The notes: generated from the sequence alone by a model not told the origin. 64,000 bases of DNA from Betaproteobacteria bacterium (GCA_013298765.1 JAAFJA010000007.1:1-64000); one strand, 5' to 3'; shown: positions 1 through 12,579, numbered from the stretch's first letter. Made by a program: numbers and translations.

Positions 1-130
1 GCAATCTCTCGGTTGCGACGCCTCGTGCGACTCAATGTCGCAACGTCTGCTTTGCCTTCGGTACTCTGCATAAAACTCCCTTTCGGTCATCATATGCCTC
101 GTACACAAAATTCAGGATAGGCTCAGCGAG

Positions 131-331
131 GTGGGCGTTGCGCTAGCGAAAAGCATTACCGATGCCGATCGCGACGGATTGAAATTGAATCCTGCAATTA
201 CGATTGAGCATGACGAAAGTGTCACTGAAGCGCTAGCCAAACTTGGAGAAACTAGCCGACTATTGCTCGTTGTAGATCCCAGAAGCCAAAACAGACTCTG
301 TGGAATAGTTTCTCCCTTTGAGTTGATCTAG
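131..331 (+). CDS. small hypothetical protein resembling a single CBS domain (GTG start)
   Basis: 66-codon ORF whose C-terminus (LLLVVDP...LCGIVSPFELI) looks like a CBS motif. Local GC is below the window average. An upstream in-frame stop at about nt 71 means it cannot be the tail of a longer gene. It lies convergent with tatD. Confidence 0.3.
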   Translation: MGVALAKSITDADRDGLKLNPAITIEHDESVTEALAKLGETSRLLLVVDPRSQNRLCGIVSPFELI

Positions 332-1116
332 CGACCAAGCACTCGCCCCACATTCCCCGTCGTCAGCTCCGCAAACGCCTCCGCACTCATCCCCCGCGCC
401 TCCGCGAGCATCGCGCCGATGCGCGCGACGTGCTCGGGTGCGTTGCGCGCACGTGATCCCATCGTTCCGAGAAAGCTGGGCGGAATATCGGGCGCGTCGG
501 TTTCAACGACGATGTGTTCAATCGGCATGTCGCGGAGTAAGCGCCGCACGTTGTTGGCCTGCGGATACGTCGCCGTGCCGCCGAAGCCCAAACAAAACCC
601 CAGCTTCACGAATTCTTCGGCTTGCTGCTGACTGCCGTTGAACGCATGCGCGAAACCGCCGCGCACTTTGATGCGTCGCAAATGTTTGAGCAGATGATCT
701 TGCGAGCGGCGCACGTGCAGTGACACCGGCAGATCGAAATCGCGTGCAATTTTTAATTGCTCAGCGTAGAACCATTCCTGTTCCGCTTGATTGAAATTCG
801 GAATGAAAAAATCAAGCCCGATTTCGCCGATCAGATCCGGCTTCTCGCGCTCGACCCATTCGCGAAGCACCGCAATGTGTTCGCGCGCTGAGAAGCCACC
901 TGGCCCGGCGACCCACATCGGATGGATGCCGTAACCCGTGATGCAGAAATCTTTTCCGTAGCGCTCACGTGTCGATTTTGCTTGCGCAAAGTGATCGACA
1001 TGCCCCGGTAAATTGATGATCGCTTGCACGCCCGCCGCACGTGCACGCGCAACGACTTCATCGCGATCCGCATCAAACTCCGGCGCGTCGAGATGGCAAT
1101 GGCTGTCGATCCACAT
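328..1116 (-). CDS. tatD: TatD-family metal-dependent deoxyribonuclease/hydrolase
   Basis: 262-aa ORF. Its N-terminus MWIDSHCHLD and the HxH...E...H...H...D metal-ligand pattern are typical of TatD/YcfH/YjjV hydrolases. Confidence 0.9.
   Translation of the reverse strand: MWIDSHCHLDAPEFDADRDEVVARARAAGVQAIINLPGHVDHFAQAKSTRERYGKDFCITGYGIHPMWVAGPGGFSAREHIAVLREWVEREKPDLIGEIGLDFFIPNFNQAEQEWFYAEQLKIARDFDLPVSLHVRRSQDHLLKHLRRIKVRGGFAHAFNGSQQQAEEFVKLGFCLGFGGTATYPQANNVRRLLRDMPIEHIVVETDAPDIPPSFLGTMGSRARNAPEHVARIGAMLAEARGMSAEAFAELTTGNVGRVLGR
1087..1116. repeat. 30-bp exact direct repeat, copy A (the tatD start codon region)
   Basis: The string gtcgagatggcaatggctgtcgatccacat is identical at 1087-1116 and 3521-3550. 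Both were read directly from the sequence. Confidence 0.9.
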
Positions 1117-1254
1117 GCTCCGATTGTAGGATTGCCTCTCCCTGTGGGACCAGCCGTAGGCGCAGGACGCAACGCAGTTGCGGTCGGCGAGCTATGCGAG
1201 AGATGCGCTAAAGCGCACAGAGGTCGCGCGGAACGCGCGGGTGAGGGAAATCGC

Positions 1255-1340
1255 ACCTTGGTATACGTTGCTGCAGTGCAGTCGCTTTACCCTCACCCAA
1301 CGCTTTGCGTTGACCTCTCCCAAAAGGGAGAGGTTGGGCG
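1255..1340. repeat. GC-rich REP-like palindromic element (the CTCTCCC...GGGAGAGG / CCCTCACCC family)
   Basis: It contains cctctcccaaaagggagagg and ccctcacccaac. Related copies occur at about 7803-7930, 21296-21376, 40288-40332 and 63045-63175. Confidence 0.7.
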
Positions 1341-1350
1341 GGTTCAACTG

Positions 1351-2109
1351 TCAAAACACACAATCGCGGGGCAAAATCGACTTCTCGATCATCCGATTGC
1401 GCAATCGTTCGCGAAGCATCAACACCGGATTTTTCTCTCCGAGTTCTTGGTTGGGTGCGATCACGCGAATCGTAGGCGCGTTGGCCGCATCGCTTGGCTT
1501 TGCCACGACCAGAAACGCGGAGAGTGCGCTTTGCTCCATCGTGCATCGTGCGTCTCCGCCTTCGAGCGCGCCAGCTTCGAGCGCGTTGAGCAAGGCAACG
1601 GCGAGGCCGCAGGATTTTGGCGTGCTCAGATAATGCGCAAGCGTTTTGTCGAGCACATCGGTGCTCGCGAGGATGTTGCCTTGCACGGATACGCCATCGG
1701 CCGAGCGCGCGCCGCGTGCGTGCGAGGTGAAATGGCCGGTGAAACTCGCAGTCGTTGGTTTGCCTTCTTGAAGCGTGACGACGCCATATTGCCGAGTTTG
1801 CCGGATGAGCGCGATGCTTTGATCGACATGCGTTGAGGTGATCGCTCCAACGATCGCGTTCGCGGCGCTGCCTTCGCGCAGCATCTTGCTCGCGTGATCG
1901 CGCCCTTCGTTGCTGGTCAAACCCTGCGCGACGACCGCGCCTTTGCCCGGAACGACGCGGGCAATCACGGCGACATCCGGGAAGCAGGTTGCGCCAGCAG
2001 CGCCAACTTCGCCGGTTTCGGGGTCGACTGCGACAATGCTCCAAGTCGCTGAGGCAACGAACGGCAACAACGCGACAAAGGGCGCGCTCCATCTAAACCA
2101 CGGTTTCAT
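1351..2109 (-). CDS. DUF1028-family secreted protein (Ntn-hydrolase-like fold)
   Basis: 252-aa ORF with a signal peptide (MKPWFRWSAPFVALLPFVASA). The segment TWSIVAVDPETGEVGAAGATC matches the conserved DUF1028 N-terminal motif (T-FSIVA-D). Confidence 0.8.
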   Translation of the reverse strand: MKPWFRWSAPFVALLPFVASATWSIVAVDPETGEVGAAGATCFPDVAVIARVVPGKGAVVAQGLTSNEGRDHASKMLREGSAANAIVGAITSTHVDQSIALIRQTRQYGVVTLQEGKPTTASFTGHFTSHARGARSADGVSVQGNILASTDVLDKTLAHYLSTPKSCGLAVALLNALEAGALEGGDARCTMEQSALSAFLVVAKPSDAANAPTIRVIAPNQELGEKNPVLMLRERLRNRMIEKSILPRDCVF

Positions 2110-2216
2110 AGTTTCTCCTGATTCGAAACGAACAGGTCGAAATCTAGAGAGCGCGGGAAGTGGCGTCCTCGCAAAACCAAAAAACTTCGCTCAAAACCCG
2201 AAATAAGGAGATATTT

Positions 2217-3293
2217 TTAGTTTTGAGGGGTAGTAGGTGCGTTTTCGAGCACTTTTTTGCGGTAATCCGTCGGTGTCACGCCTTCGAGCGCCTTAAAAAC
2301 GCGGTTGAACGTGGCAAGTGACGCGAAACCTGAATCCATTGATATTCGAAGGATTTGTTGCCGCGCTTTTTCCGGATCGGCAAGCGCAACCTTCGCGTGC
2401 GCGATTCGCAAGCCCGTTACGTAGCTCGAAAAATTCCGATGCCCGAGCCCACGATTGATGAGCGCGCGCAACTGGTGTTCGGGAACGCCCACGCGCTTGG
2501 CCAGCGAACCGACACTCAGTTCGGGATCGAGAAACGCGCGACCGGTTTCCATTTCGGCGTTCAGCCTGCCCAGGACGGCCTGATCGCGTGGATCAATCGC
2601 GTGCTCGACCGGCGCTTTTGACGTTTCAAGCAGCGTCGTTTCGAACACCAAGGCTTCGTGCGAAAACTTAGCCAGCCAGAACAGCACCAGAAGCGTCGCA
2701 CCAAACGCAAAGAATGCGCGCAGGATATTGCCCGCTTCCACGTTATCGATTTCTTCCGCCAGCAACGACGCGACGATAGCGAAAGCGATCACCGCAACGA
2801 TCCAAAGTCGAAAACGCCGACGTTCCTCCAGCAAATCGTCGCGAAAGCCCGAGATTGCCATCCACAGCATGTGCGCGCAAAGCACGAGCGGTGGAACGAT
2901 ACCCACGTTGAGGACGAACGCTGGCCATTGCTGAACCATTGCGCCGAGCGAATGCAAAAAGTAATACGTGGGAAATACGCAAGCCGCAATCAAACCGAAC
3001 CACTGCAAGCCAGCGATTCGAAAACGATCATCGAGCAACGAGCAAGCGAACCACCAACACAGCCCAACCGAAGGAATACTCAACGCACGCGCAACGTTGC
3101 TCCAAGACGAAGGCAGCGCTAAAGCCGAGGGCAGCAGCCAGAGATAGCCGAAGCCCACCGAAATCATCAAGGCGATAAGCAAGAGCAGTGGCTTTGAGCG
3201 ATGCCCCGCGAAGATGCCTCTCGCGAGCAATCCGCCGACGATGAGCGAAACAATCGTGACGCCAATCGTCGGGAAAACTTGAAGAAGAAGCAT
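2217..3293 (-). CDS. membrane-anchored AraC-family transcriptional regulator
   Basis: 358-aa ORF. The N-terminal about 200 aa form multiple hydrophobic transmembrane helices. The C-terminal about 100 aa form the AraC/XylS double HTH (LAKRVGVPEHQLRALINRGLGHRNFSSYVTGLRIAHAK...SLATFNRVFKALEGVTPTDYRK). Confidence 0.8.
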   Translation of the reverse strand: MLLLQVFPTIGVTIVSLIVGGLLARGIFAGHRSKPLLLLIALMISVGFGYLWLLPSALALPSSWSNVARALSIPSVGLCWWFACSLLDDRFRIAGLQWFGLIAACVFPTYYFLHSLGAMVQQWPAFVLNVGIVPPLVLCAHMLWMAISGFRDDLLEERRRFRLWIVAVIAFAIVASLLAEEIDNVEAGNILRAFFAFGATLLVLFWLAKFSHEALVFETTLLETSKAPVEHAIDPRDQAVLGRLNAEMETGRAFLDPELSVGSLAKRVGVPEHQLRALINRGLGHRNFSSYVTGLRIAHAKVALADPEKARQQILRISMDSGFASLATFNRVFKALEGVTPTDYRKKVLENAPTTPQN

Positions 3294-3520
3294 GAGTTCG
3301 CGACGCGCGTGGTTACAAAGTAATCGTGATGGACTACGAATGTAACAACGCGAAGCTAGTGATTACGTCTTTTGCCAAAGATTTACACAGAAGTTCTAGA
3401 TGCCGAATCAAAGCGGCTTGTTGCGCGCGGCGCGGTGTTGCTCGGATGTTTTTTTGACGCAGATTACGCAGATGAATCAGTTGATTTACGCAGATTTTTC
3501 ACGAGCGCTTCGCGCGGCTA

Positions 3521-3550
3521 GTCGAGATGGCAATGGCTGTCGATCCACAT
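3521..3550. repeat. 30-bp exact direct repeat, copy B (a tatD 5'-end remnant)
   Basis: Identical to 1087-1116. On the minus strand it reads ATG TGG ATC GAC AGC CAT TGC CAT CTC GAC TAG, which translates to MWIDSHCHLD followed by a stop. It is therefore an orphan 10-codon copy of the tatD start. Confidence 0.9.
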
Positions 3551-3568
3551 TTAGCGAGAACTGCAAGA

Positions 3569-4075
3569 CTACTCTGCGGCCTTGAGTTCCTCGATAATCC
3601 TTGCGCTACGCGCCCTAATGCGCTCCATCATTGGTGGCATTAGCGATTGCATCATCGGGGCTGATTGCGATATCACCTGCGGTGCTTTCTGCGCAAACGC
3701 AATGCCCGCTGGCGAACGATAAAAGTCGCGAATTCCGCGCAATTCATCTAACGTATAAACAGTCGCATAGGCGTCCAGCATCGAAGCTTTTACCTTGCCA
3801 AGAAAATCCGCGCCCATCATGTCATCAGTAAATTCCGTCATATGGCGCTGCAAAATTTCCTGCTGCTTGGAGTTGAGCTTTTGACCACTGACTTGTTTTT
3901 GCAAGTTTTGTAGCGTGGGGGTCATGAGTTGTCGCACGCTTTGGGCCAGTGACTCGCTCGCGGTCAGATCCAAAACTTCTTGTGCAAGTTGTTTCGCTTC
4001 TGCCGAGGGCTGCGCATATGAAGGGGCGCTTGTGGCGAGAAGAAACGATGCGAGGAGTAGAGCGCGTAGTTTCAT
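3569..4075 (-). CDS. DUF2059-family periplasmic protein
   Basis: 168-aa ORF with a signal peptide (MKLRALLLASFLLATSAPSYA). It is helical and Q/L-rich, with the LDELRGIRDFYRSPAG motif typical of DUF2059. Confidence 0.7.
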   Translation of the reverse strand: MKLRALLLASFLLATSAPSYAQPSAEAKQLAQEVLDLTASESLAQSVRQLMTPTLQNLQKQVSGQKLNSKQQEILQRHMTEFTDDMMGADFLGKVKASMLDAYATVYTLDELRGIRDFYRSPAGIAFAQKAPQVISQSAPMMQSLMPPMMERIRARSARIIEELKAAE

Positions 4076-4136
4076 GTATTTCCTTTAATCGATTCGCCAA
4101 ACTGAAACAAGTGAGAGCGTAGCGGATTTCAACCGA

Positions 4137-5765
4137 TCAAATGGCAATAGCGTTGAAACTCAACCCAAACCGCGCCAAATACTTGCGCAACCGATCCGCG
4201 TCGTTCACTTCGCTTCGCTCTTCGCGCGAGACGTTGTAGAGCTTGCGACCCGCATCCGAGAGCGTGCGGCTTTGTTTGCACACGCGAATTACCGCTTCGA
4301 GTTGCAGGCGATCGAAGAGATCGAGTTTTGCGAGTGCGGCTTCGTCGACATAGCGTTCGAGCTCGACGCTTTGCGCGTTGCTCGTCGATGCGTCTTTCGC
4401 CCAAAGCCATTTGAGCCGCTCGATTTCCGCATCGACCACGGCCTCGGTGATGCGCCCGCCGTCGGCGAGTGTGGCCATGCGAGTCACACTTGCGGATAGA
4501 TCACGAAAATTGCCTCTCCACGCGCCATTTACACCGGACGCGAAGCTCATATAACGCTTTTTCGCTTCTACATTGAATCGAGCCTGTTGCCCGATATCTT
4601 TTGGGCTAAGTGACAATAGGTAATCTACGTTCGGCTCAATGTCTTCGGGTCGCTCGGCAAGGCCGGGCAAGGTGTAACTCCAGAGATTGATCCGCGCGAA
4701 CAAATCCTCTCGAAACTCGCCGCGCGCGACCGCATCGCGCAGATCGAGATTGGTGCCTGCGATCAACTGGAAATCGCTCGCAACTTCTTTGTCTGCACCG
4801 ACTGGATAGAAGCGTTTGTCTTCAATCGCTTTGAGCAGCATCGCTTGTTCATCAAGCCCGAGCGTGCCGATCTCATCGAGAAAGAGCACGCCTTTGTCAG
4901 CGCTGCGAAGCAAGCCCGCGCGATCGGCCATCGCGCCCGTGAACGCGCCCTTTTTGTGACCGAACAAGGTGGACGCGGCGCCGTCGCCCATGAGCGTTGC
5001 GCAATTCACTTCAACGAATTCGCCAGTGACGTTGTGTCGCTCTTTCTTCAATTCGTAAATGCGCTTCGCGAGGAAACTTTTCCCCGCGCCGGTGGGGCCG
5101 GTCAGCAACACTGGCGCACTTGATCGCAGCGCCACGTGTTCAATCTCATCGATCAAGGCGTTGAAGCGTTTGTTCTTCGTTGCGATGCCGCTTTTCAAGT
5201 AGCGCTTCGCATCGTCCGTCGCGATCGCAAAGCGTTTCGCAATCGCGTCATAGCGCGAAAGATCAAGATCGATCAGCGCATAGCTGCCCGGATCGCCTTC
5301 GCGCTGCGGGCGTGGCGGCGCGGTTTGCAGGAGCACACCCGGTAGCACGCGCGCCTCTGCAAGCAAGAACAAACAAATCTGCGCGACGTGCGTGCCCGTC
5401 GTGATGTGAATCCAATAATCCGATTGCTCCGGATCAAGCTTCTGCGCATGCGCCCAATCAAAGAGCGCGCCATACATCTCACCGAAATCCCAAGGATCGC
5501 GCACGGGCAGCGCATGCAAGGTGACGCGCGTATCCGGGCTCACGAGCGCGATGTCTGCCACCACTTGCTCCGCAATCCGCTCATGCCCCGGCGAATGCAA
5601 CAGCTCAATCGCATCAATCGCGACATCTTCGTGCTGCACGATAGAAATGGTCGGCCGCCACTTTTGCCAACGACCACGACCGCCGCCTGCATCAAGCTGC
5701 GAGCCTAGGAAGCCGATGACGGTGGTGGGTTTGGTGGTTGGTTGTGACACTCTTTGCTGCTCCAT
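4137..5765 (-). CDS. rtcR: sigma54-dependent transcriptional activator RtcR (CARF-like N-terminal domain + AAA+ domain + C-terminal HTH)
   Basis: Collinear with E. coli RtcR throughout (WRPT, HITTGTHVAQIC, IDLDLSRY, GPTGAGKSF, GAFTGA, FLDEIG, ATWRGNFRELSASVTRMAT, NDADRLRKYLARFGL). The start was chosen at MEQQRV (5765). An alternative upstream ATG lies at 5798. Confidence 0.9.
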   Translation of the reverse strand: MEQQRVSQPTTKPTTVIGFLGSQLDAGGGRGRWQKWRPTISIVQHEDVAIDAIELLHSPGHERIAEQVVADIALVSPDTRVTLHALPVRDPWDFGEMYGALFDWAHAQKLDPEQSDYWIHITTGTHVAQICLFLLAEARVLPGVLLQTAPPRPQREGDPGSYALIDLDLSRYDAIAKRFAIATDDAKRYLKSGIATKNKRFNALIDEIEHVALRSSAPVLLTGPTGAGKSFLAKRIYELKKERHNVTGEFVEVNCATLMGDGAASTLFGHKKGAFTGAMADRAGLLRSADKGVLFLDEIGTLGLDEQAMLLKAIEDKRFYPVGADKEVASDFQLIAGTNLDLRDAVARGEFREDLFARINLWSYTLPGLAERPEDIEPNVDYLLSLSPKDIGQQARFNVEAKKRYMSFASGVNGAWRGNFRDLSASVTRMATLADGGRITEAVVDAEIERLKWLWAKDASTSNAQSVELERYVDEAALAKLDLFDRLQLEAVIRVCKQSRTLSDAGRKLYNVSREERSEVNDADRLRKYLARFGLSFNAIAI

Positions 5766-5815
5766 GCTCCCTCTAGTGCTGGGTTCCTTGCACCACACCT
5801 CAATCTGTCATCCCC

Positions 5816-5914
5816 GCGGAGGCGGGGACCCAGACCGAGACGGTCGAGAAACTACGATCATTTGATCAACAGCAATCTGCCCGGTCTGGGTTCCCGCCTT
5901 CGCGGGAATGACGA
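5816..5914. repeat. inverted-repeat pair of GC-rich palindromic units (tgtcatccccgcggaggcggggacccagaccg / cggtctgggttcccgccttcgcgggaatgacg)
   Basis: Arms of 32 nt at 5816-5847 and 5882-5914 are reverse complements with 3-4 mismatches. Each arm is itself palindromic (CCCGCG..GCGGG). The pair lies in the rtcR / rtc-operon divergent intergenic region. Confidence 0.75.
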
Positions 5915-6064
5915 CAGCGGGTTAGCTATTTTGCTATTGAACGTGCTTTCAAGCTAGTTGCGCAGTGAATTGACTCACGTGCGGCGCCAGCAAACGTGAG
6001 CAAATCAGAAAAGTAATTAAATAAATCAATGGTTTACGGTTGGCAGCCGCTGCGATACACGATC

Positions 6065-6080
6065 TGGCACGCTCGCTGCA
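6065..6080 (+). promoter_or_regulatory. sigma54 (RpoN) -24/-12 promoter for the RtcR-controlled operon
   Basis: The sequence is cTGGCACgctcgcTGCAa. The GG sits at 6066-6067 and the GC at 6078-6079, giving the canonical 12-nt spacing. It matches TGGCACG-N4-TTGCW apart from a single T-to-C change. It lies about 300 nt upstream of the divergent rtcR and points toward the SPFH-ankyrin-rtcB genes. Confidence 0.75.
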
Positions 6081-6091
6081 ATAAGAAAAGC

Positions 6092-6655
6092 GTCAAACAG
6101 AAAACATGATGCGCTTACAGGTTCTAGGGGTTTGCTCCCCACCGGTGCGCGATGCCTCGAATGGTTCGAGTTGCGTGTTGCGTATGCCGCCGCATGTGGA
6201 CTGCTTGATATGAAGTTCTCTTGGTGACAGCGGCAACGCTGTTGGGTTCGATTCCCTTGAATTTCTCCTTTTGGATAGCTCAATCGGCAGAGCAATCGAC
6301 CACGAATCGATATGTAGCGGGTTCGAATCCCGTTCCAAAACCTGGCCTGAAACGCCATGATGAAACCCGAGCCGCAAGGCTCACCGCCGAATGCAGATCG
6401 GCAACGCGGACAACGAAGCATCGAAACACGAAAGCGAATCGATGCTGCGGTGGAAGCGAAGGCGATTTGTCAGCCCGCGCGCTCTGCGATATGCGAGAGG
6501 CGAGGACGAACGGCACGGCAGCGTTGTTAGTAACGCGTTCGATGCAGTTTGATCGAACGCGAAGCAAGCGACAACACCGTTGCTCAACGTTCAACGCAAG
6601 CGAATCCCGCGAGCGGACTGTAACGGCAACACTCACGAATAAAGAAAGAACAACA
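6092..6655 (+). ncRNA. structured 5' leader / candidate ncRNA region between the sigma54 promoter and the first CDS
   Basis: About 560 nt with no convincing CDS. The overlapping ORF translation is low-complexity and R/T-rich. The region contains the tRNA-like element and several perfect hairpins (GCATCGA..TCGATGC at 6419-6446; CGTTCGAT..ATCGAACG at 6536-6559). Confidence 0.4.
6269..6341 (+). tRNA. tRNA-like cloverleaf, Arg(ACG)-type but atypical; a possible pseudo-tRNA or Y-RNA-like tRNA mimic in the rtc operon leader
   Basis: Manual fold. The acceptor stem TTTTGGA/TCCAAAA has 7 bp. Positions 8-9 are U8 and A9. The D-arm is GCTC-AATCGGCA-GAGC and includes GG. The anticodon stem is ATCGA/TCGAT with loop CCACGAA, so the anticodon is ACG but position 33 is C rather than U. 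The variable loop is ATGTA. The T-arm is GCGGG-TTCGAAT-CCCGT. The discriminator is C and no CCA is encoded. The AT-rich acceptor stem is anomalous for this GC-rich genome. Confidence 0.5.
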
Positions 6656-7795
6656 ATGATGAATCTAAACAAAATCAATGTGCGCAAAACCGAACGTGCA
6701 GTACTTTTGCGCAATGGCGATTTCGAGCGCGTGCTCGCGCCGGGTCAATACTGGTTTCCTACGCTCTTCGACAAGATTGTCGTGGAGCGAAAAGAGGTAG
6801 CACAGCCACTCTACATCGGCGCTGCTGCTGACTACCTGCTCGCAACGCCTACCGATTCGGCAAACGAGCACTTCGTGCGTGTTGAATTGAACGATACGCA
6901 AGCTGGCTTGTTGTACGAAAACGATTCGCTCGTCGAACTTTTGCCGCCTGCGACGCGTCGCTTGTATTGGAAGACTTCGGCAAACGTGCGCGTTGAAACC
7001 GTTGAGCTTTCGGGTGAAGGCGAGCTTGCGAAAGACTTGGTTGCAAAGATCACGCATTCGCAATTGAAGCGTCGCGCGGTTGCTGGTTTGCAAGCGGTGT
7101 TGCAAGTGCAAGTGCCGGAATACAACATCGGCTTGCTTGTGATCGACGGGAAACTTGTTCGCATGCTGGAAGCGGGTTCGTATGCGTTTTGGCGATTTAA
7201 CCGTAGCGTTACGGTGGAGTTCGTCGATTTGCGTGTGCAAGCGCTTGAAGTCACCGGTCAAGAAATCTTGACGCGAGACAAAGTGGCGCTACGACTCAAC
7301 CTGGGCGCAACGTGGCGTTATGCGGACGTGTTGAAAGCGTTCGCGATGACTGCGAAACCGTTGGATAACCTCTATCGCGAATTGCAGTTTGCATTGCGCG
7401 CCGCAGTGGGCACGCAATCGCTCGACGAGTTGCTGGAAAACAAAACGGCACTCAATGAGAAGGTTAAAGTCGCAGTGCGCGAGCGCATGGCGAGCGCAGG
7501 TATCGCGCTTGAGGCAGTGGGTGTGAAAGACATCATCCTGCCTGGCGAGATGAAAGCGATCCTCGCGCAAGTCGTAGAAGCGGAAAAAGTCGCGCAAGCC
7601 AACTTGATCCGTCGCCGCGAAGAAACCGCTGCATCGCGCTCGCTCTTGAACACAGCGAAAGTGATGGAAGACAACCCAGTGGCGCTACGCTTGAAAGAGC
7701 TAGAAACCCTGGAACGCGTCGCGGAACGCATCGACAAAATCTCCGTGTTTGGAGGTTTGGACGGTGTGTTGAACGCGTTGGCGAAAGTGAAGTAG
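6656..7795 (+). CDS. SPFH/band-7 (stomatin/flotillin-like) domain protein
   Basis: About 379 aa starting at the ATGATG after aaagaaagaacaaca. The SPFH domain is indicated by the pattern LYENDSL..RRLYW... and long coiled-coil/EA-rich helices (ILAQVVEAEKVAQANLIRRREE). No N-terminal TM segment is evident. Confidence 0.75.
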   Translation: MMNLNKINVRKTERAVLLRNGDFERVLAPGQYWFPTLFDKIVVERKEVAQPLYIGAAADYLLATPTDSANEHFVRVELNDTQAGLLYENDSLVELLPPATRRLYWKTSANVRVETVELSGEGELAKDLVAKITHSQLKRRAVAGLQAVLQVQVPEYNIGLLVIDGKLVRMLEAGSYAFWRFNRSVTVEFVDLRVQALEVTGQEILTRDKVALRLNLGATWRYADVLKAFAMTAKPLDNLYRELQFALRAAVGTQSLDELLENKTALNEKVKVAVRERMASAGIALEAVGVKDIILPGEMKAILAQVVEAEKVAQANLIRRREETAASRSLLNTAKVMEDNPVALRLKELETLERVAERIDKISVFGGLDGVLNALAKVK

Positions 7796-7802
7796 CCTCG
7801 TC

Positions 7803-7930
7803 AACGAGTGATTCCCTCCCCTTCAAGGGGAGGGTCAGGGTGGGGATAGTTTTCTCTGCCTCCTATCGACCGAAAACCATTCCCCTCCTAGCCTCCCCGT
7901 TGAAGGGTGAGGAACCCGCAAAGCATCGGA
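7803..7930. repeat. REP-like GC-rich palindromic element (two units)
   Basis: It contains ccctccccttcaaggggagggtcagggtgggg and cctccccgttgaagggtgagg, which belong to the same family as 1255-1340 and 40288-40332. Confidence 0.7.
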
Positions 7931-7937
7931 TCAGCGC

Positions 7938-8474
7938 ATGAACGACTACGACTACATCATCAACAGCTTACAAAACGAGTCGATCACCGAATGGGAAGAG
8001 TTGGCGTTGATTGTTGACGATTTCCCCGGTGGGGTCGATTGGTGGTTGGGGCGACGTTGGATCATCAATGCAATTGATTTGTCCCCGTTGAGCGCAATCG
8101 AATGGATGCTCACGAAAGGGATAAACCTTCGATTCCGTGACGGCGAAGGCTATACGCCGTTACATTCAGCGGTAGAGCGTAGATTCGATGATCGCGTTCA
8201 AGTGATAAGTGCATTAGTGGGAGCGGGTGCAAATGTCGACGAGATTGGTCGTGAAACGACTACCCCTCTCTTATTCGCGCTCGAAATGAAGCGAAACGAG
8301 TGCGCACTTGCACTTTTGCAACTCGGCGCAAACGTCCACGTTCAAACACTGATCGATTGGTATGAATCCCCGCTCGAGTACGCGCAGCGCACGAAACATG
8401 AGCTGTTGCCTCAACTTGAAAATGCCGCTGCGCGAAAAACTCGCGAATTCGGGGCCAAAGTGAAAACAGCATGA
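7938..8474 (+). CDS. ankyrin-repeat protein
   Basis: 178 aa with three ANK-like units (GYTPLHSAVERRFDDRVQVISALVGAGANVDE; TTPLLFALEMKRNECALALLQLGANVHV). GC is about 50%, below the window background. Its stop overlaps the rtcB start (ATGA). Confidence 0.8.
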   Translation: MNDYDYIINSLQNESITEWEELALIVDDFPGGVDWWLGRRWIINAIDLSPLSAIEWMLTKGINLRFRDGEGYTPLHSAVERRFDDRVQVISALVGAGANVDEIGRETTTPLLFALEMKRNECALALLQLGANVHVQTLIDWYESPLEYAQRTKHELLPQLENAAARKTREFGAKVKTA

Positions 8475-9688
8475 AAAACTACAACGAAATCCAAACCGAA
8501 AACGTCCCGATCAAAATGTGGACGAAGGGCGTGCCTGTTGAGGACGACGCTCAGAAGCAATTGCTCAACGCTTCGAAGTTGCCGATTGTGTTTAAGCACA
8601 TCGCTGCGATGCCGGACGTGCATTTGGGGATTGGTGCGACTGTGGGCTCGGTGATTCCTACGCTGCGGGCGATCATTCCGGCGGCCGTCGGCGTGGACAT
8701 CGGTTGCGGGATGATTGCTTGCAAGACGACGTTAACCGCGAGCGACTTGCCGGATAACTTGTTGCCGCTTCGTAGCGCGATTGAGCGCTCGGTGCCGCAC
8801 GGGCGCGTGGCGATGCGCGGGAAGCGAGACACCGGCGCGTGGGACAGCCCGCCCGAGGAAGCGGATGCTGCGTGGGCGAAACTTGCATCGGGTTTTGATG
8901 AGATCACCGAGGTTGAGCCGCGCTTGAAAAACACGAACAACCGAAAGCATTTGGGAACGCTTGGAACGGGTAACCATTTCATCGAAATTTGTCTCGATGA
9001 GAAGCAGGCGGTTTGGATCATGCTGCATTCGGGTTCGCGCGGCGTGGGTAACGCGATCGGAACGCTCTACATTGAGCGCGCTCGCGAAGAAGCGATCAAG
9101 CACAACATGAATTTGCCTGACAAAGATTTGGCGTATTTCGAAGAAGGCTCGAAGTATTTCGGCGACTACGTGCGCGGCGTGAGCTGGGCGCAGCAATTCG
9201 CGAAACTAAATCGCGAAGTGATGATGCAGCGCGTGATTGCGGCGATGAAAACCGTGATCGCGAAGCCGTTTGAGACGCATCTGGAAGCGGTGAACTGTCA
9301 TCACAACTATGTGCAACGCGAAACGCATTTCGGCGAAGCCGTGTTCGTGACGCGCAAGGGCGCGGTGAGCGCAAAGGCGGGTGAACTCGGCATCATCCCG
9401 GGTTCGATGGGCGCGAAGAGCTACATCGTGCGCGGAAAAGGCAATCCGGAAAGCTTCATGTCATGCAGCCACGGCGCAGGCCGCACGATGAGTCGCACGC
9501 AAGCGAAAAAGCGCTTCACGCTCGCCGATCACATCAAAGCGACCGAAGGCGTGGAATGCCGAAAAGACGAGGATGTGATCGACGAGATTCCGATGGCGTA
9601 CAAAGACATCGACGCGGTGATGGAAGCGCAGCGGGATTTGGTGGATGTGGTTTATACGTTGAAGCAGGTGGTTTGTGTGAAGGGGTGA
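8471..9688 (+). CDS. rtcB: RNA-splicing ligase RtcB (3'-phosphate/5'-OH RNA ligase)
   Basis: 405 aa. The N-terminus ...PIKMWTKGVPVEDDAQKQLLNASKLPIVFKHIAAMPDVHLGIGATVGSVIPT is near-identical to the E. coli RtcB N-terminus. The metal-ligand and catalytic His regions (GTGNHFIE, SCSHGAGR) are conserved. Confidence 0.95.
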   Translation: MKNYNEIQTENVPIKMWTKGVPVEDDAQKQLLNASKLPIVFKHIAAMPDVHLGIGATVGSVIPTLRAIIPAAVGVDIGCGMIACKTTLTASDLPDNLLPLRSAIERSVPHGRVAMRGKRDTGAWDSPPEEADAAWAKLASGFDEITEVEPRLKNTNNRKHLGTLGTGNHFIEICLDEKQAVWIMLHSGSRGVGNAIGTLYIERAREEAIKHNMNLPDKDLAYFEEGSKYFGDYVRGVSWAQQFAKLNREVMMQRVIAAMKTVIAKPFETHLEAVNCHHNYVQRETHFGEAVFVTRKGAVSAKAGELGIIPGSMGAKSYIVRGKGNPESFMSCSHGAGRTMSRTQAKKRFTLADHIKATEGVECRKDEDVIDEIPMAYKDIDAVMEAQRDLVDVVYTLKQVVCVKG

Positions 9689-9691
9689 GGG

Positions 9692-10417
9692 ATGCAAGTA
9701 GATATCAATGCGCGCTATACGGACTTAGTGGTTCGCTCGGAGCGGACGTGGCAGGAAGCATTGCTATTGTTTGACCGACTGAATCGAAATAGAGAAGTAC
9801 TGAGCAGAATCGAGGAAGATGAACTAAGGAGTAATCCACCTCCTATTCATTTCATGCGAAAGCGAAAAAGCGAGTGGCGCGACGAAGCTATCGCGGCAAA
9901 CGCGGAGAGGCTACTTGAGATTGCATCGCGAACCGCATTGGTTTTCGGGCACTCCGCGTTGGACGCAGCACTAAACGATTTTCTGTGTTTTTGTGCGACC
10001 CTCGACGGCAGCGCTTTCGATTTTCATGTTCAGGAGCGAAAATTGCCCGCGAAGGAATTTCTTTCTAAGAGTGGTTCAGAACTCAGAGCAGCGCTTATTG
10101 ACCGATTCCTGAAAGAATCCTCAAGAGAACCAATTTTGAAAAGAATTTCGATACTTTTGTCGATTTGCAAGCCAACGGCTCAGCATTTCAGCGATGTTGT
10201 CTACCCAGAGTTTGTCTACGAGCAATCGCGAGTGGAGCAAATCGACCATTTGCGGCATCAGGTGATTCACCGAGGCGCGATACCAAGCATTAACTACGAT
10301 GACACGCTTTATCTTTACATGATCACACGCTTGGTCTATCGCGTAGTTACCTCGCTGCGCCCGGTCACATTCGATTTAGATCTTGCGATAAGAACCTCCA
10401 CTAACCTGAAGAGCTAG
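9692..10417 (+). CDS. hypothetical protein, low-GC, occupying the position where RtcA is normally found; possible HEPN-like Rx4H motif
   Basis: 241-aa ORF. Its start lies 4 nt after the rtcB stop, with no intervening intergenic region. GC is about 42-48%. No recognisable RtcA motifs are present. The C-terminal region has LRHQVIHRG, an R-x4-H pattern. It is predicted alpha-helical. Confidence 0.55.
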   Translation: MQVDINARYTDLVVRSERTWQEALLLFDRLNRNREVLSRIEEDELRSNPPPIHFMRKRKSEWRDEAIAANAERLLEIASRTALVFGHSALDAALNDFLCFCATLDGSAFDFHVQERKLPAKEFLSKSGSELRAALIDRFLKESSREPILKRISILLSICKPTAQHFSDVVYPEFVYEQSRVEQIDHLRHQVIHRGAIPSINYDDTLYLYMITRLVYRVVTSLRPVTFDLDLAIRTSTNLKS

Positions 10418-10582
10418 AGCATCGGAATTTCGTTTCGGTCGTAGCTAGGATGAAGCGCAACGGAATCGAGGCATTTCATTCGCAACCCCTCGATTGCGCT
10501 TCGTTTCATCGAGGCTGCGAATCGTGGATCGCTTCGCGATGCGTTACGGGAACCCGGATGCGAGCATCCGGGCTACGTCCTT

Positions 10583-10693
10583 CGTTTTCGGTAGGGTGCG
10601 ATCCTATCGCACCTTGTGCGCATACGCGCGAAGCGCACTACTTCAATCCGCGTTGGTCGGTATCAAACTGGGTGCGATAGGATCGCACCCTAC
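10583..10693. mobile_element. MITE-like element of about 115 bp (copy 1) with terminal hairpin/inverted repeats TAGGGTGCGATCCTATCGCACC ... GGTGCGATAGGATCGCACCCTA
   Basis: Terminal 23-nt inverted repeats lie at 10583-10606 and 10669-10693. The internal core (cttcaatccgcgttggtcggtatcaaa) is about 80% identical to the reverse complement of the core of the second copy at 55157-55255. Confidence 0.65.
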
Positions 10694-10712
10694 GATTCGT
10701 CACAAAATTGCA

Positions 10713-11063
10713 TCACGGTTTCCCGTACGCGCGCTCGACCTTGGCGATTCGTAATTCGAAGTGTTCATACCAACGCTCTTGCCCATACTGCTGCGCGACT
10801 AGGTGTTCGGCGTTGGCTTTCCATTTGACGATTGCGGCTTCGTCGCGCCAATACGAGACGGTGATGCCGAAGCCGTCGGCGCCGCGTGCGGATTCGATGC
10901 CGAGGTAGCCGTCTTGTTGGGCGGCAAGTTCGACCATGCGGTCTGCCATGTCGCCGTAGCCGTCGGACGCCCCGTGTCCGTCGTTGTCCGCACCGGGGGT
11001 TCGAAAGCTGGAGAAGATCACGGCGAAGTAGGGCGGTTGAGGAAGCGTTGCGAAGTTCGTCAT
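10713..11063 (-). CDS. antibiotic-biosynthesis-monooxygenase (ABM)-like / stress-responsive alpha-beta barrel protein
   Basis: 116-aa ORF with the motif SYWRDEAAIVKWKANAEHLVAQQYGQERWYEHFELRIAKV, typical of the ABM/Dabb fold. Confidence 0.55.
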   Translation of the reverse strand: MTNFATLPQPPYFAVIFSSFRTPGADNDGHGASDGYGDMADRMVELAAQQDGYLGIESARGADGFGITVSYWRDEAAIVKWKANAEHLVAQQYGQERWYEHFELRIAKVERAYGKP

Positions 11064-11177
11064 TCTTGTATCGTGAGGCGTTCAAGGCTCGGCTCGAAAT
11101 CGTAGCGCAACCGAAGCATTTGGCAGATGCGCTTTCAGCATCGATGTTGTTGAGCGAGTTATCCAATAATTGCTGTT

Positions 11178-11951
11178 ATGCGCATTCTCATCACCGGACT
11201 CAACGGCTCGTTAGCGCCGCATCTTGCGCGGGTTGCACGTGCGCACGCGCACGAGGTGATCGGTTGGGATCGCGGTGCGGTTTCTCCGGATGATGCAGCG
11301 GCGGGCGATACGTTCCTTCACAACACGCAACCCGATGCCATTGCGCATTTGGGCTTTGGGAGTGAGGATTGGGCCGCGCGGCTTGCGAGTTGGGCAGCGG
11401 CGAATGATCGAGCGTTTGTGTTCACGAGTACGGCAATGGTGTTCGATCATCTACCCGATGGCCCGCATCGAGTGAACGATGAGCGCACGGCGAAAGACGA
11501 TTACGGTCGCTACAAAATTCGTTGCGAAGACGCGATCCGCGCGGCGAATCCTGCTGCGTGCATCGCGCGGATTGGTTGGCAGATTGATGTTGACGACGAC
11601 GGCCACGCGCGGGGTAACAATATGCTTGCGGCGCTCGATCAACAGCAAGCCAGTGATGGACGGATTCGCGCGAGCACTGCGTGGCGGCCCGCGTGTTCGT
11701 TGATGAGCGATACGGCGTTGGCTTTGCTTCAGTTGATCGAGCAGCGCGGCGAAGGTGTCGTGCATCTCGATAGCAATGAAGACTCAGCGCTCAATTTTTA
11801 TGAGTTGGTTGCGTCACTCAAAGTGCGGTTCGCTAGAGCGTCGTGGATCATCGAGCCGCATGCGGAGTATGTTCACGATCAGCGGCTGATTGCTTCCGAG
11901 TGCAGCGCGGTGCGTATCGCGCCGCTTTCAGCACGGTTCGGTAGCCAATAA
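11178..11951 (+). CDS. NAD(P)-dependent sugar-nucleotide epimerase/reductase (short-chain dehydrogenase/reductase (SDR) family; RmlD-substrate-binding-like)
   Basis: 257 aa. It has an N-terminal Rossmann motif (MRILITGLNGSLAPHL) and the Y-x3-K pattern (DDYGRYKIRCE). Confidence 0.65.
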   Translation: MRILITGLNGSLAPHLARVARAHAHEVIGWDRGAVSPDDAAAGDTFLHNTQPDAIAHLGFGSEDWAARLASWAAANDRAFVFTSTAMVFDHLPDGPHRVNDERTAKDDYGRYKIRCEDAIRAANPAACIARIGWQIDVDDDGHARGNNMLAALDQQQASDGRIRASTAWRPACSLMSDTALALLQLIEQRGEGVVHLDSNEDSALNFYELVASLKVRFARASWIIEPHAEYVHDQRLIASECSAVRIAPLSARFGSQ

Positions 11952-12075
11952 TTGCAATGCAACTTAAATCGCTATAACCAGGCTTAAACAGGGCGAAAAT
12001 CAATAAATCAAGTTTATCAATGCTTAGGTTTTTAGACCGCTAGCCCCGCTAGAAAAAGGATTACGCTTGAAAAGC

Positions 12076-12579
12076 TTACTCTGTTTCAACAAGCTGTAAC
12101 GCCATGTAGAGCACGTCTGGCTCGGGGTTGTGCACATACGCTTCCGCCTCTTCAAAGCCGAGCGAACGGTAGAGCGAAATCGCGGCCGGCATCCGCGTAC
12201 GCAGTGTGTCGAGTTTCATCGTGCGATAGCCTGCAGCGCGCGCGAAGTCGATAGAGGTTTGCGCAAGAGCGCGTCCCACCCCCATGCCCTTCGCGGCGTC
12301 TTCCACCCAGAGGCGTTTCATCTCGCATTCCGCGTCGTTTAAGGGCTTTACTGCGATGCAGCCGAGCGGTTCTTGATCGCTTGTTCGTCGCGCGATCCAC
12401 AAATTTCCACGAGGCTTCACATACGCGCCCGGGAGCGCGGCAAGCTCAGCTTCGAAGTTCTGAAAACATAAATCGATTTGTGTCCATGTTTGATAGCGAC
12501 GCATCAAACCGCGCAGTGCATCCAAGTCTGCGGCCTGCGCTTCAAGAAGCGTGAAGGTGGTGCGATTTTCGACTGTCAT
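12076..12579 (-). CDS. GNAT family N-acetyltransferase
   Basis: 167 aa. It contains the acetyl-CoA binding motif region (RLWVEDAAKGMGVGRALAQTSIDFARAAGYRTMKLDT). Confidence 0.85.
   Translation of the reverse strand: MTVENRTTFTLLEAQAADLDALRGLMRRYQTWTQIDLCFQNFEAELAALPGAYVKPRGNLWIARRTSDQEPLGCIAVKPLNDAECEMKRLWVEDAAKGMGVGRALAQTSIDFARAAGYRTMKLDTLRTRMPAAISLYRSLGFEEAEAYVHNPEPDVLYMALQLVETE

What the first reader, a model, noticed from the sequence alone, without database searches (positions are those of the whole stretch)
1087..3550. 30-bp exact direct repeat (a copy of the tatD start codon region) flanking a 2.4-kb two-gene segment
Seen in sequence. The 30 nt that encode the first 10 codons of tatD (1087-1116) recur exactly at 3521-3550. 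There, on the minus strand, they read MWIDSHCHLD followed immediately by TAG. The intervening segment carries a DUF1028 secreted protein, a membrane-anchored AraC regulator and a REP element. Inference. This is the signature of a duplication-associated insertion, either an islet or illegitimate recombination at the 5' end of tatD. The orphan copy is the remnant of the original junction.
Basis: seen in the sequence. Interest (0 to 1): 0.6.

Follow-up and report, generated by a model that had tools for sequence, protein, structure and literature searches.

The report
Orphan tatD start: old recombination scar
The second copy of the first ten codons of tatD is a dead gene fragment marking where tatD used to begin, left when a regulator/hydrolase gene pair was joined in front of tatD by a sloppy recombination event; it is an ordinary genome-evolution scar, not a mobile element or a functional site.

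Summary
The 30-nt exact direct repeat is real (1087-1116 and 3521-3550; 34/36 if extended) and is not an assembly artefact. A sister lineage has the same layout in four independent assemblies. There the orphan and the live tatD start differ at 2 of 30 positions.

Relatives (Casimicrobium-like betaproteobacteria) carry both "parent" layouts:
- rtcR-DUF2059-(17-21 nt)-tatD in L001, L002 and L174.
- AraC-DUF1028-(REP)-tatD in L084, L085 and L171.

The window is a chimera of the two. The orphan sits 18 nt after the DUF2059 stop, where tatD starts in the first layout. The repeat's left edge is exactly the ATG, because only coding sequence is shared between the two upstream contexts.

L084 has its own independent, longer and decayed orphan (271 nt, 87% identical, frameshifted).

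There is no integrase, transposase or terminal inverted repeat. The 30-mer is not dispersed.

Best explanation: one illegitimate join at tatD nt 30-36 plus one homologous exchange, either homology-facilitated illegitimate recombination or single crossover of a circularised fragment. The chimeric allele was later passed between lineages by homologous recombination.

The orphan is a non-functional relic. Interest is low.

The parts
328..1116 (-). Intact tatD (262 aa, TatD_DNase).
   Evidence: Pfam E = 7e-57. 91-95% aa identical to tatD of L001, L002, L173 and L174.
1087..1116 (-). Repeat copy 1: the first 10 codons of the live tatD.
1117..1350 (-). REP-containing spacer between DUF1028 and tatD. 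TACAAT at 1123-1128 (minus strand) lies 6 nt before the ATG, which is the geometry of a leaderless promoter.
   Evidence: 93% match to both REP copies in L084, and pieces at unlinked sites in L002 and L085. CCTACAAT-N6-ATG is conserved in L003, L004, L084, L085, L166, L171 and L173. The promoter role is inferred.
1351..2109 (-). DUF1028 protein (252 aa) with a signal-peptide-like N-terminus.
   Evidence: Pfam E = 3e-32. Paired with the AraC gene in L084, L085, L166, L171 and L172.
2217..3293 (-). AraC-family regulator (358 aa) with a multi-pass hydrophobic N-terminal half.
   Evidence: Pfam HTH_18. Hydropathy. Orthologues 82-96% identical lie upstream of DUF1028-tatD in relatives.
3294..3350 (-). 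AraC upstream region shared with the AraC-DUF1028-tatD relatives.
   Evidence: Homology to L084 and L085 stops at window position 3350-3357.
3351..3520 (-). Spacer found only in this chimeric arrangement. It contains a dispersed REP2-type element (3448-3499) and 21 nt of unknown origin next to the junction.
   Evidence: Present only in the window, L081-L083 and L166-L169. The REP2 core recurs in L001, L004, L008, L009, L014 and L166.
3515..3520 (-). Illegitimate junction zone. TAGCCG replaces the tatD sequence GCGCCG; the TAG stop ends the orphan ORF.
   Evidence: In L166 the sequence is TAGCAG and in L169 TACCAG, where the stop is lost.
3521..3550 (-). Repeat copy 2: orphan tatD' fragment (10 codons), a pseudogene relic at the former tatD start.
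   Evidence: Identical in L166-L168, with one substitution in L169.
3551..3568 (-). 18-nt spacer between the DUF2059 stop and the orphan ATG. Its length matches the 17-21 nt DUF2059-tatD spacers of relatives.
3569..4075 (-). DUF2059 periplasmic-type protein (168 aa), a hypervariable allele.
   Evidence: Pfam. 96% aa identity to P0121 (gene 97.4% nt identical in L166), but only 51-60% aa identity to L001, L002, L173 and L174.
4137..5798 (-). rtcR, the conserved left anchor of the variable region.
   Evidence: Pfam RtcR plus Sigma54_activat. 88-97% aa identity in relatives.

Best explanation
The orphan 30-mer is a non-functional 10-codon fragment of tatD. It marks the start of tatD in an older arrangement, rtcR-DUF2059-tatD. 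The present arrangement is a chimera of two pre-existing alternative arrangements of the rtcR-tatD interval.

Proposed event: DNA carrying '...AraC-DUF1028-REP-tatD 5' part' from a related lineage was joined to an rtcR-DUF2059-tatD chromosome. One exchange was homologous, most simply inside tatD. The other was an illegitimate join at tatD nt 30-36. This is homology-facilitated illegitimate recombination. A circularised fragment integrating by a single crossover through the short tatD homology would give the same product.

Consequences:
- The incoming block brought its own tatD start and upstream REP/TACAAT region, so tatD stayed intact.
- The resident first 30 nt were left stranded behind DUF2059.
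- The two 30-mers are identical because this stretch of tatD is highly conserved, not because it was duplicated on the spot.
- The chimeric allele later moved between lineages by ordinary homologous recombination.

Shown: the anatomy, both parental arrangements in relatives, a second independent orphan, the age of the scar, and the mosaic identity.

Inferred: the direction (which side was recipient) and the enzymatic route.
For: 1. Parental arrangement A, rtcR-DUF2059-(17-21 nt)-tatD, is present in L001, L002 and L174, and with a REP in L173. Their DUF2059 alleles are only 51-60% aa identical, so this adjacency is old.
2. Parental arrangement B, AraC-DUF1028-(REP)-tatD, is present in L084, L085 (plus an M60 peptidase gene) and L171. 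It is collinear with window 3350-371 at 83-90% nt identity.
3. The orphan lies 18 nt after the DUF2059 stop. The repeat's left edge is exactly the ATG. Upstream of the orphan is DUF2059-type context; upstream of the live gene is REP/CCTACAAT-type context, as in L003, L004 and L084.
4. L084 has an independent orphan: REP plus about 40 codons of tatD directly after rtcR (4458-4724). It is 87% identical to 9960-10230 and has a 4-nt deletion. It has a different junction position and a different upstream context, so the process has recurred.
5. The same scar is present in L166-L169. The orphan is unchanged in L166-L168, while L169 has one substitution and has lost the stop. L166's live tatD differs from its orphan at 2 of 30 positions.
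6. Window versus L166 identity is 95-97% from about 5350 to about 1500, but 77-87% in rtcB, the 5' part of rtcR and most of tatD. This shows allele exchange by homologous recombination at this locus.
7. No integrase or transposase lies within 12 kb. There are no terminal inverted repeats. The 30-mer is not dispersed.
8. HFIR is known to give an insertion coupled to a deletion, with 3-10 bp microhomology at the illegitimate junction. Circularised fragments are known to integrate by single crossover (PMC3240628). Orphaned gene ends at T6SS/Rhs loci have been explained the same way (PMC5361080).
Against: - No relative carrying the donor-type sequence (the 3351-3520 spacer without the orphan) was found. 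The microhomology at the junction therefore cannot be read; the only hint is GCCG two bases past the break.
- Sliding-window identity across tatD shows no clean crossover point. The 5' end is marginally closest to L084/L085 and the 3' end to L001, but the signal is weak.
- The direction cannot be decided from the product: the anchor could be in tatD or in rtcR, and either side could be the recipient.
- All relatives are metagenome assemblies of different species, so the order of events rests on parsimony.
- Natural competence or another DNA delivery route is unknown for this organism.
Confidence: 0.62

Rival explanations
1. Intragenomic origin. A tandem duplication included the 5' end of tatD. 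Deletion of most of one copy then left a stranded tatD start, with no DNA from another lineage involved.
For: Duplication followed by deletion can formally produce the L084 layout, with 271-nt direct repeats flanking six genes. Microhomology-type deletions do occur at this locus: L085 and L171 have the rtcR 3' end fused to the AraC upstream region at AGCTTC.
Against: For the window, the deletion would have had to end exactly at the orphan's ATG and recreate the 17-21 nt DUF2059-tatD spacing seen in L001, L002 and L174. The sequences upstream of the two copies are unrelated, and each matches a native context in other lineages. No trace of a second AraC/DUF1028 copy exists.
Confidence: 0.12
2. 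Reverse polarity. The orphan-bearing arrangement is ancestral, and the DUF2059-tatD genomes arose from it by deletion between the two 30-nt repeats.
For: Deletion between 30-nt direct repeats is mechanistically easy and would give exactly the DUF2059-tatD product.
Against: DUF2059 alleles next to tatD in L001, L002, L173 and L174 are only 51-60% aa identical to the window's (64-68% nt in local alignments for L001, L173 and L174; 66.5% nt for L002). An orphan of that age could not have stayed 30/30 identical. This reading also leaves the origin of the orphan unexplained.
Confidence: 0.08
3. Site-specific integration. The first ~30 nt of tatD are an att-like core for a recombinase supplied in trans or since lost. 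The AraC-DUF1028 block is a non-autonomous integrated cassette that restores the tatD 5' end, in the way SXT does at prfC.
For: Direct repeats flank the block and tatD is restored. Two independent lineages carry orphan tatD starts.
Against: There is no integrase or recombinase in the segment or within 12 kb, nor among the called genes of L084. The junctions lie at different positions: nt 30-36 in the window and about nt 125 in L084. In L084 the repeat extends 146 nt upstream of the ATG. AraC-DUF1028 occurs at another locus in L172 with no tatD gene called anywhere on its 9.1-kb contig. There are no hits in viral contigs.
Confidence: 0.06
4. Transposon-like insertion that generated a 30-bp target-site duplication in situ.
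For: A perfect direct repeat flanks a discrete segment.
Against: There are no terminal inverted repeats and no transposase. From general knowledge, 30 bp is far longer than usual target duplications. The left repeat edge coincides with the start codon. The right-hand context (REP-TACAAT-ATG) is a native tatD upstream region in relatives, so it is not the end of an element.
Confidence: 0.03
5. Assembly artefact. A k = 31 de Bruijn graph loop through a shared 30-mer placed a 2,434-bp path inside the locus.
For: 30 = k-1 for k = 31, and Logan contigs use k = 31, so on their own they cannot prove linkage across the repeat.
Against: L166 (a 170-kb contig) and L167 show the same order although their two copies differ at 2 of 30 positions. 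Four JGI samples, an NCBI contig and two Logan runs all agree.
Confidence: 0.01

Closest known systems
Homology-facilitated illegitimate recombination (HFIR) products, described experimentally in Acinetobacter baylyi, Streptococcus pneumoniae, Pseudomonas stutzeri and E. coli conjugation (PMC3240628)
   Same: There is one homologous junction and one illegitimate junction. An insertion of about 1-5 kb from a related genome sits next to a conserved anchor gene. No mobility genes are involved. The product retains a truncated piece of resident sequence.
   Different: Here the event is inferred from comparative genomics only. RecA dependence and the DNA uptake route are untested. The retained resident piece duplicates the start of the anchor gene.
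Orphaned gene ends in T6SS effector-immunity, Rhs and CDI arrays (PMC5361080 and the references cited in it)
   Same: Successive replacement at a variable locus bounded by conserved sequence leaves short orphaned fragments of the conserved gene as scars. The explanation given there is HFIR-like events followed by spread through homologous recombination.
   Different: Those loci strand 3' ends and immunity genes that stay useful. Here a 5' end of a housekeeping-type TatD hydrolase gene is stranded, and nothing suggests the orphan is used. There is no toxin/immunity logic.
SXT/R391 integration into the 5' end of prfC, and similar islands that restore the 5' end of the target gene (from general knowledge, not tested here)
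   Same: Inserted DNA supplies a new promoter and start for the target gene and leaves direct repeats at both ends.
   Different: Those elements encode a tyrosine integrase and use a fixed short core. No recombinase was found here, and the junction positions differ between the two independent cases.
Campbell-type single crossover of a circularised fragment (PMC3240628)
   Same: It yields direct repeats exactly as long as the shared homology, flanking the inserted DNA. This fits both the 30-nt repeats in the window and the 271-nt repeats in L084.
   Different: A 30-36 nt homology is near the lower limit for RecA-dependent crossover (general knowledge). The circular intermediate is hypothetical.

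Membership tests
HFIR-type (one homologous + one illegitimate junction) recombination scar | Both parental arrangements exist independently in related genomes. | tested here: met
   rtcR-DUF2059-tatD in L001, L002 and L174. AraC-DUF1028-tatD in L084, L085 and L171.
HFIR-type (one homologous + one illegitimate junction) recombination scar | Short (3-10 bp) microhomology at the illegitimate junction. | tested here: inconclusive
   No donor-type sequence lacking the orphan was found, so the junction cannot be compared with its donor. The only hint is GCCG, shared two bases after the break.
HFIR-type (one homologous + one illegitimate junction) recombination scar | Homologous exchange in the adjacent conserved gene(s). 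| tested here: inconclusive
   Mosaic identity tracts show that homologous exchange occurs at this locus. No unambiguous crossover point for the founding event is visible in tatD.
HFIR-type (one homologous + one illegitimate junction) recombination scar | RecA dependence and linear incoming DNA. | not testable with these tools
   Requires genetics in a cultured relative.
Integrative island with att repeats (site-specific recombinase) | An integrase or recombinase gene in or beside the element. | tested here: not met
   Pfam scans of all ORFs from 131 to 12579 show none. None is listed among the called genes of L084, L085 or L166.
Integrative island with att repeats (site-specific recombinase) | The same crossover core in independent insertions. 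| tested here: not met
   The orphan ends at nt 30-36 in the window and at about nt 125 in L084. In L084 the repeat also spans 146 nt upstream of the ATG.
Transposable element with target-site duplication | Terminal inverted repeats and a transposase (or a family of identical non-autonomous copies). | tested here: not met
   No inverted repeats at the segment ends. No transposase. No second copy of the segment in the window or in the fetched loci other than at the same locus.
Dispersed repeat (REP-like) family | Multiple copies of the 30-mer at unrelated sites. | tested here: not met
   Two copies in 64 kb. In the loci held at that point, including about 150 with a tatD hit, it occurs only at tatD starts and orphans. 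None in viral contigs. The rest of this genome could not be scanned.
Assembly artefact (k-mer loop) | The structure is absent from independent assemblies or depends on an exact repeat of at least k-1. | tested here: not met
   The same order is seen in L166 and L167, where the two copies differ at 2 of 30 positions, and in L082 and L083.

The most novel reading that the evidence does not exclude
The first ~30-125 nt of tatD, together with the REP-borne 'CCTACAAT-N6-ATG' start region, act as a recurrent landing pad. Gene blocks that end in REP-TACAAT-tatD5' are repeatedly captured in front of tatD in this clade, each time replacing the gene's promoter and start and stranding the old start. A dedicated but unrecognised recombination activity (for example REP-associated) would drive this, rather than rare random illegitimate events.
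Probability: 0.06. Interest if true: 0.55.

Novelty: new member of a known kind. Interest (0 to 1): 0.2.

Why it matters
The finding is a clean, datable natural example of how gene content changes at a variable chromosomal interval without mobile-element machinery. Two alternative arrangements were joined by one illegitimate and one homologous exchange. The join left a pseudogene scar, and the new allele was then passed between related species by homologous recombination.

Practical value:
- The orphan should be annotated as a tatD fragment, not as a gene or an att site.
- The case shows that an exact repeat of conserved coding sequence is not evidence of a recent duplication.

It does not reveal a new system or function.

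Tried and rejected
- Mosaic test on tatD. No clear breakpoint appeared, so the recipient and donor sides remain undecided.
- Search for a donor-type sequence for the 3351-3520 spacer. Only the REP2 core recurs elsewhere. The 21 nt next to the junction have no other match, and no tatD 3' remnant is present.
- Rfam scan of 1-6500. Nothing was found at the repeat or in the spacers, only sub-threshold hits on REP hairpins and a tRNA at 6269-6341.
- Promoter/terminator scan of 900-4200. No sigma-70 consensus sites, and terminator-like hits at chance level.
- Exact-protein look-up of the window's TatD. Not on record, so the right-hand junction could not be confirmed in the Logan runs.
- The metagenome scan with TatD returned only more distant relatives (80% or less), whose loci carry none of the window's neighbouring genes (rtcR, DUF2059, AraC, DUF1028).
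- Viral-contig scan for the 30-mer. No hits.
- The whole genome of the window's organism could not be scanned for further 30-mer copies.
- Transposon/target-site duplication, att-site, tandem-duplication, reverse-polarity and assembly-artefact readings were considered. The reasons for ranking them low are given under the rival explanations.
Full report
**1. The observation**

The 30-mer GTCGAGATGGCAATGGCTGTCGATCCACAT is present exactly twice in the window, at 1087-1116 and 3521-3550. Allowing 3 mismatches finds no further match, and 100 shuffles gave none. Similarity continues for six more bases with two mismatches, giving 34/36 over 1081-1116 and 3515-3550.

On the minus strand the upstream copy reads MWIDSHCHLD followed by TAG. 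The other copy is the true start of a 262-aa TatD_DNase gene.

- DUF1028, 1351-2109.
- An AraC/HTH_18 regulator, 2217-3293. Its N-terminal 210 residues contain several hydrophobic segments.
- DUF2059, 3569-4075.
- rtcR, 4137-5798.

All of these lie on the minus strand.

**2. Is it an artefact?**

The repeat length equals k-1 for k = 31, so I checked independent assemblies.
- The window's AraC protein comes from an NCBI contig of 251,827 bp.
- Logan contigs from two other runs are 100% identical over 1,882 and 928 nt and cross DUF2059-orphan-AraC.
- A sister lineage carries the same order rtcR-DUF2059-orphan-spacer-AraC-DUF1028-tatD in L166, a 170-kb JGI contig. Three further JGI samples cover the DUF2059-orphan part of the same structure, and L167 extends into AraC and DUF1028.
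- In L166 the orphan (identical to the window's) and the live tatD start differ at two positions (AGT, GAT). No exact repeat could have caused a mis-join there.

The structure is real.

**3. What relatives show**

The organism is a Casimicrobium-like betaproteobacterium; the best TatD matches are 88-92% aa identical. The interval between rtcR and tatD exists in many alternative forms among close relatives:

| Locus or loci | Arrangement |
|---|---|
| L001, L002, L174 | rtcR-DUF2059-(17-21 nt)-tatD |
| L173 | rtcR-DUF2059-REP-tatD |
| L003 | rtcR-REP-tatD |
| L171 | rtcR'-AraC-DUF1028-tatD |
| L085 | rtcR'-AraC-DUF1028-M60 peptidase-tatD |
| L084 | rtcR-REP-tatD'-four genes-AraC-DUF1028-REP-tatD |
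| L170 | rtcR-DUF2059-then the same four-gene block |
| Window, L166-L169 | rtcR-DUF2059-tatD'(30 nt)-spacer-AraC-DUF1028-REP-tatD |

Four genomes have rtcB genes 93-94% identical to one another (window, L001, L084, L085), yet they show four different arrangements. The interval therefore turns over quickly.

**4. Reading the scar**

The orphan lies 18 nt after the DUF2059 stop. This is where tatD starts in L001, L002 and L174, whose spacers are 17-21 nt.

The repeat's left boundary is exactly the ATG. Upstream of the orphan is DUF2059-type context. Upstream of the live gene is REP context ending in CCTACAAT-N6-ATG, the same context that precedes tatD in L003, L004, L084, L085, L166, L171 and L173. 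Both contexts are native tatD upstream regions in other lineages, and they share only the coding sequence. This explains the boundary without any coincidence.

To the right of the orphan, similarity to tatD stops at nt 30-36. It is followed by 21 nt of unknown origin, a REP2-type dispersed element (3448-3499), and then, from about 3350, the AraC upstream region shared with L084, L085 and L171.

From 3350 to 371 the window is collinear with L084 at 87-90% identity, apart from a 70-nt difference within the REP.

The window is therefore a chimera of a 'DUF2059-tatD' arrangement and an 'AraC-DUF1028-REP-tatD' arrangement. It has a single non-homologous junction, at tatD nt 30-36.

**5. A second, independent case**

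L084 has REP plus about 40 codons of tatD directly after rtcR (4458-4724). This fragment is 87% identical to the REP-tatD start at 9960-10230 and carries a 4-nt deletion. Its upstream context is REP rather than DUF2059, and its junction is at about nt 125 rather than nt 30-36. It is therefore a separate event.

Among about 150 loci with tatD hits, only the window type and L084 carry a second tatD 5' copy.

**6. Age and spread**

The DUF2059 alleles beside tatD in L001, L002, L173 and L174 are only 51-60% aa identical to the window's. Their rtcR is 88-97% aa identical in L001, L173 and L174; in L002 only the C-terminal third aligns, at 80%. Their tatD is 91-95% identical. The DUF2059-tatD adjacency is therefore old. 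An orphan that is still 30/30 identical must be younger than that adjacency, which argues against the reverse polarity in which the 'empty' sites arose by deletion.

The scar predates the window/L166 split. It is unchanged in L166-L168. In L169 it has one substitution and the TAG has become TAC, so there is no sign of constraint.

Gene-by-gene nt identity between the window and L166:

| Gene | nt identity (%) |
|---|---|
| rtcB | 87.2 |
| rtcR | 92.2 |
| DUF2059 | 97.4 |
| AraC | 96.0 |
| DUF1028 | 92.6 |
| tatD | 86.2 |

A sliding window shows a 95-97% tract from about 5350 to about 1500, inside flanks of 77-87%. The chimeric allele has evidently been exchanged between lineages by homologous recombination.

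The exact identity of the two copies in the window reflects conservation of this part of tatD, not recency. L001 and L173 also have the identical 30-mer at their tatD starts.

**7. Mechanism**

The product has one illegitimate junction and otherwise homologous continuity. This is what homology-facilitated illegitimate recombination yields. That reaction has a homologous anchor at one end of incoming DNA and an illegitimate join at the other. The illegitimate join usually shows 3-10 bp microhomology, and the insertion is coupled to a deletion (PMC3240628).

The same paper notes a second route: linear DNA can be circularised and integrated by a single crossover. That route would give direct repeats exactly as long as the shared homology, which fits both the 30-nt repeats in the window and the 271-nt repeats in L084.

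Orphaned gene ends at T6SS/Rhs loci have been explained in the same way (PMC5361080).

I favour a DUF2059-tatD recipient and an incoming AraC-DUF1028-REP-tatD5' fragment anchored in tatD. That version explains why both orphans sit in intact native upstream contexts and why tatD stayed intact. The mirror version, with the anchor in rtcR, gives the same product and cannot be excluded. tatD shows no clean breakpoint.

**8. Rivals**

- Mobile-element and att-site readings. They are contradicted by the absence of any integrase or transposase within 12 kb, the absence of terminal inverted repeats, the different junction positions in the two cases, and the presence of the AraC-DUF1028 pair at another locus in L172, on a 9.1-kb contig with no tatD gene called.
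- Purely intragenomic duplication-deletion. It needs an unlikely deletion endpoint exactly at the ATG.
- Function for the orphan. None is supported. It is a 10-codon ORF with no conserved stop, sitting 227 nt upstream of AraC.

**9. Verdict**

The 'islet' and 'in-situ duplication' flavours do not hold.

This is an ordinary, if tidy, recombination scar at a fast-turnover interval. I rate it a new member of a known kind, with low interest.

Noticed in passing
window 3569-4075; L001 9533-9922, L002 9530-9976, L173 1843-2352, L174 1814-2323: DUF2059 is far more divergent than its neighbours. It is 51-60% aa identical between lineages whose tatD is 91-95% identical and whose flanking rtcR is 88-97% identical (L002 aligns only over the C-terminal third, at 80%). 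This could reflect diversifying selection or repeated allele replacement.
   Followed up: partly
L084 4458-4724 versus 9960-10230: An independent, longer orphan copy of REP plus the first ~40 codons of tatD lies directly after rtcR. It is 87% identical to the live copy and has a 4-nt deletion. Six genes lie between the copies.
   Followed up: yes
window 1114-1128 (minus strand); the same motif in L003, L004, L084, L085, L166, L171, L173: CCTACAAT is followed by exactly 6 nt and then the tatD ATG, with no Shine-Dalgarno sequence. This is the geometry of a -10 box for a leaderless mRNA. The TAC belongs to the end of a REP arm. The motif is absent from DUF2059-tatD junctions and from the orphan.
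   Followed up: partly
L085 6962-8001; L171 6899-8001: rtcR lacks its N-terminal RtcR domain. Its 3' end is fused to the AraC upstream region at a shared AGCTTC, changing the last residues (…SFALLHS*). This looks like a microhomology deletion derived from a longer arrangement.
   Followed up: partly
window 6066-6081 and 6269-6342: A sigma-54-type motif (TGGCAC-N5-CTGCA) and a tRNA-Arg(ACG)-like gene (Rfam tRNA 57.9 bits; ARAGORN) lie in the leader of the operon Band7/SPFH-ankyrin-RtcB, which is divergent from rtcR. The layout is reminiscent of tRNA-like or Y-RNA modules in rtc/rsr operons.
   Followed up: no
window 3448-3499; L001 18580-18713 (inverted pair), L004 8718-8769, L008, L009, L014, L166 14894-14944: A second dispersed short repeat family (AAAAATCTGCGTAAATC…ATCTGCGTAATCTGCGTCAAAAAAA) is distinct from the REP at 1117-1350. 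There is only one copy in this 64-kb window.
   Followed up: partly
window ~5350 to ~1500 versus L166 ~6700 to ~10570: A 3.9-kb tract is 95-97% identical, embedded in flanks of 77-87% (rtcB, the 5' part of rtcR, and the ends of tatD). A separate 94-95% patch lies in mid-tatD (870-571). These indicate recent inter-lineage homologous recombination.
   Followed up: yes
window 5807-5912: A 31-nt inverted repeat pair (90% complementary, 44-nt spacer) lies upstream of rtcR. It is a REP doublet, and copies occur in L001, L003, L004, L085 and L166.
   Followed up: no
window 1-327: The flank downstream of tatD (a converging 66-aa ORF with a CBS-domain match) is shared with none of the fetched relatives. 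These carry glyoxalase/AraC2 or DUF1289/radical-SAM genes there instead. tatD is therefore bounded by variable DNA on both sides.
   Followed up: partly
L005, L007, L009-L012, L014, L015, L086-L088, L090, L091, L095, L101 (upstream of tatD): In more distant Casimicrobiaceae, tatD starts 10-25 nt after another conserved gene ending in …AAKRAA*, often with a GTG start. The rtcR-linked position of tatD is therefore specific to the close clade.
   Followed up: no
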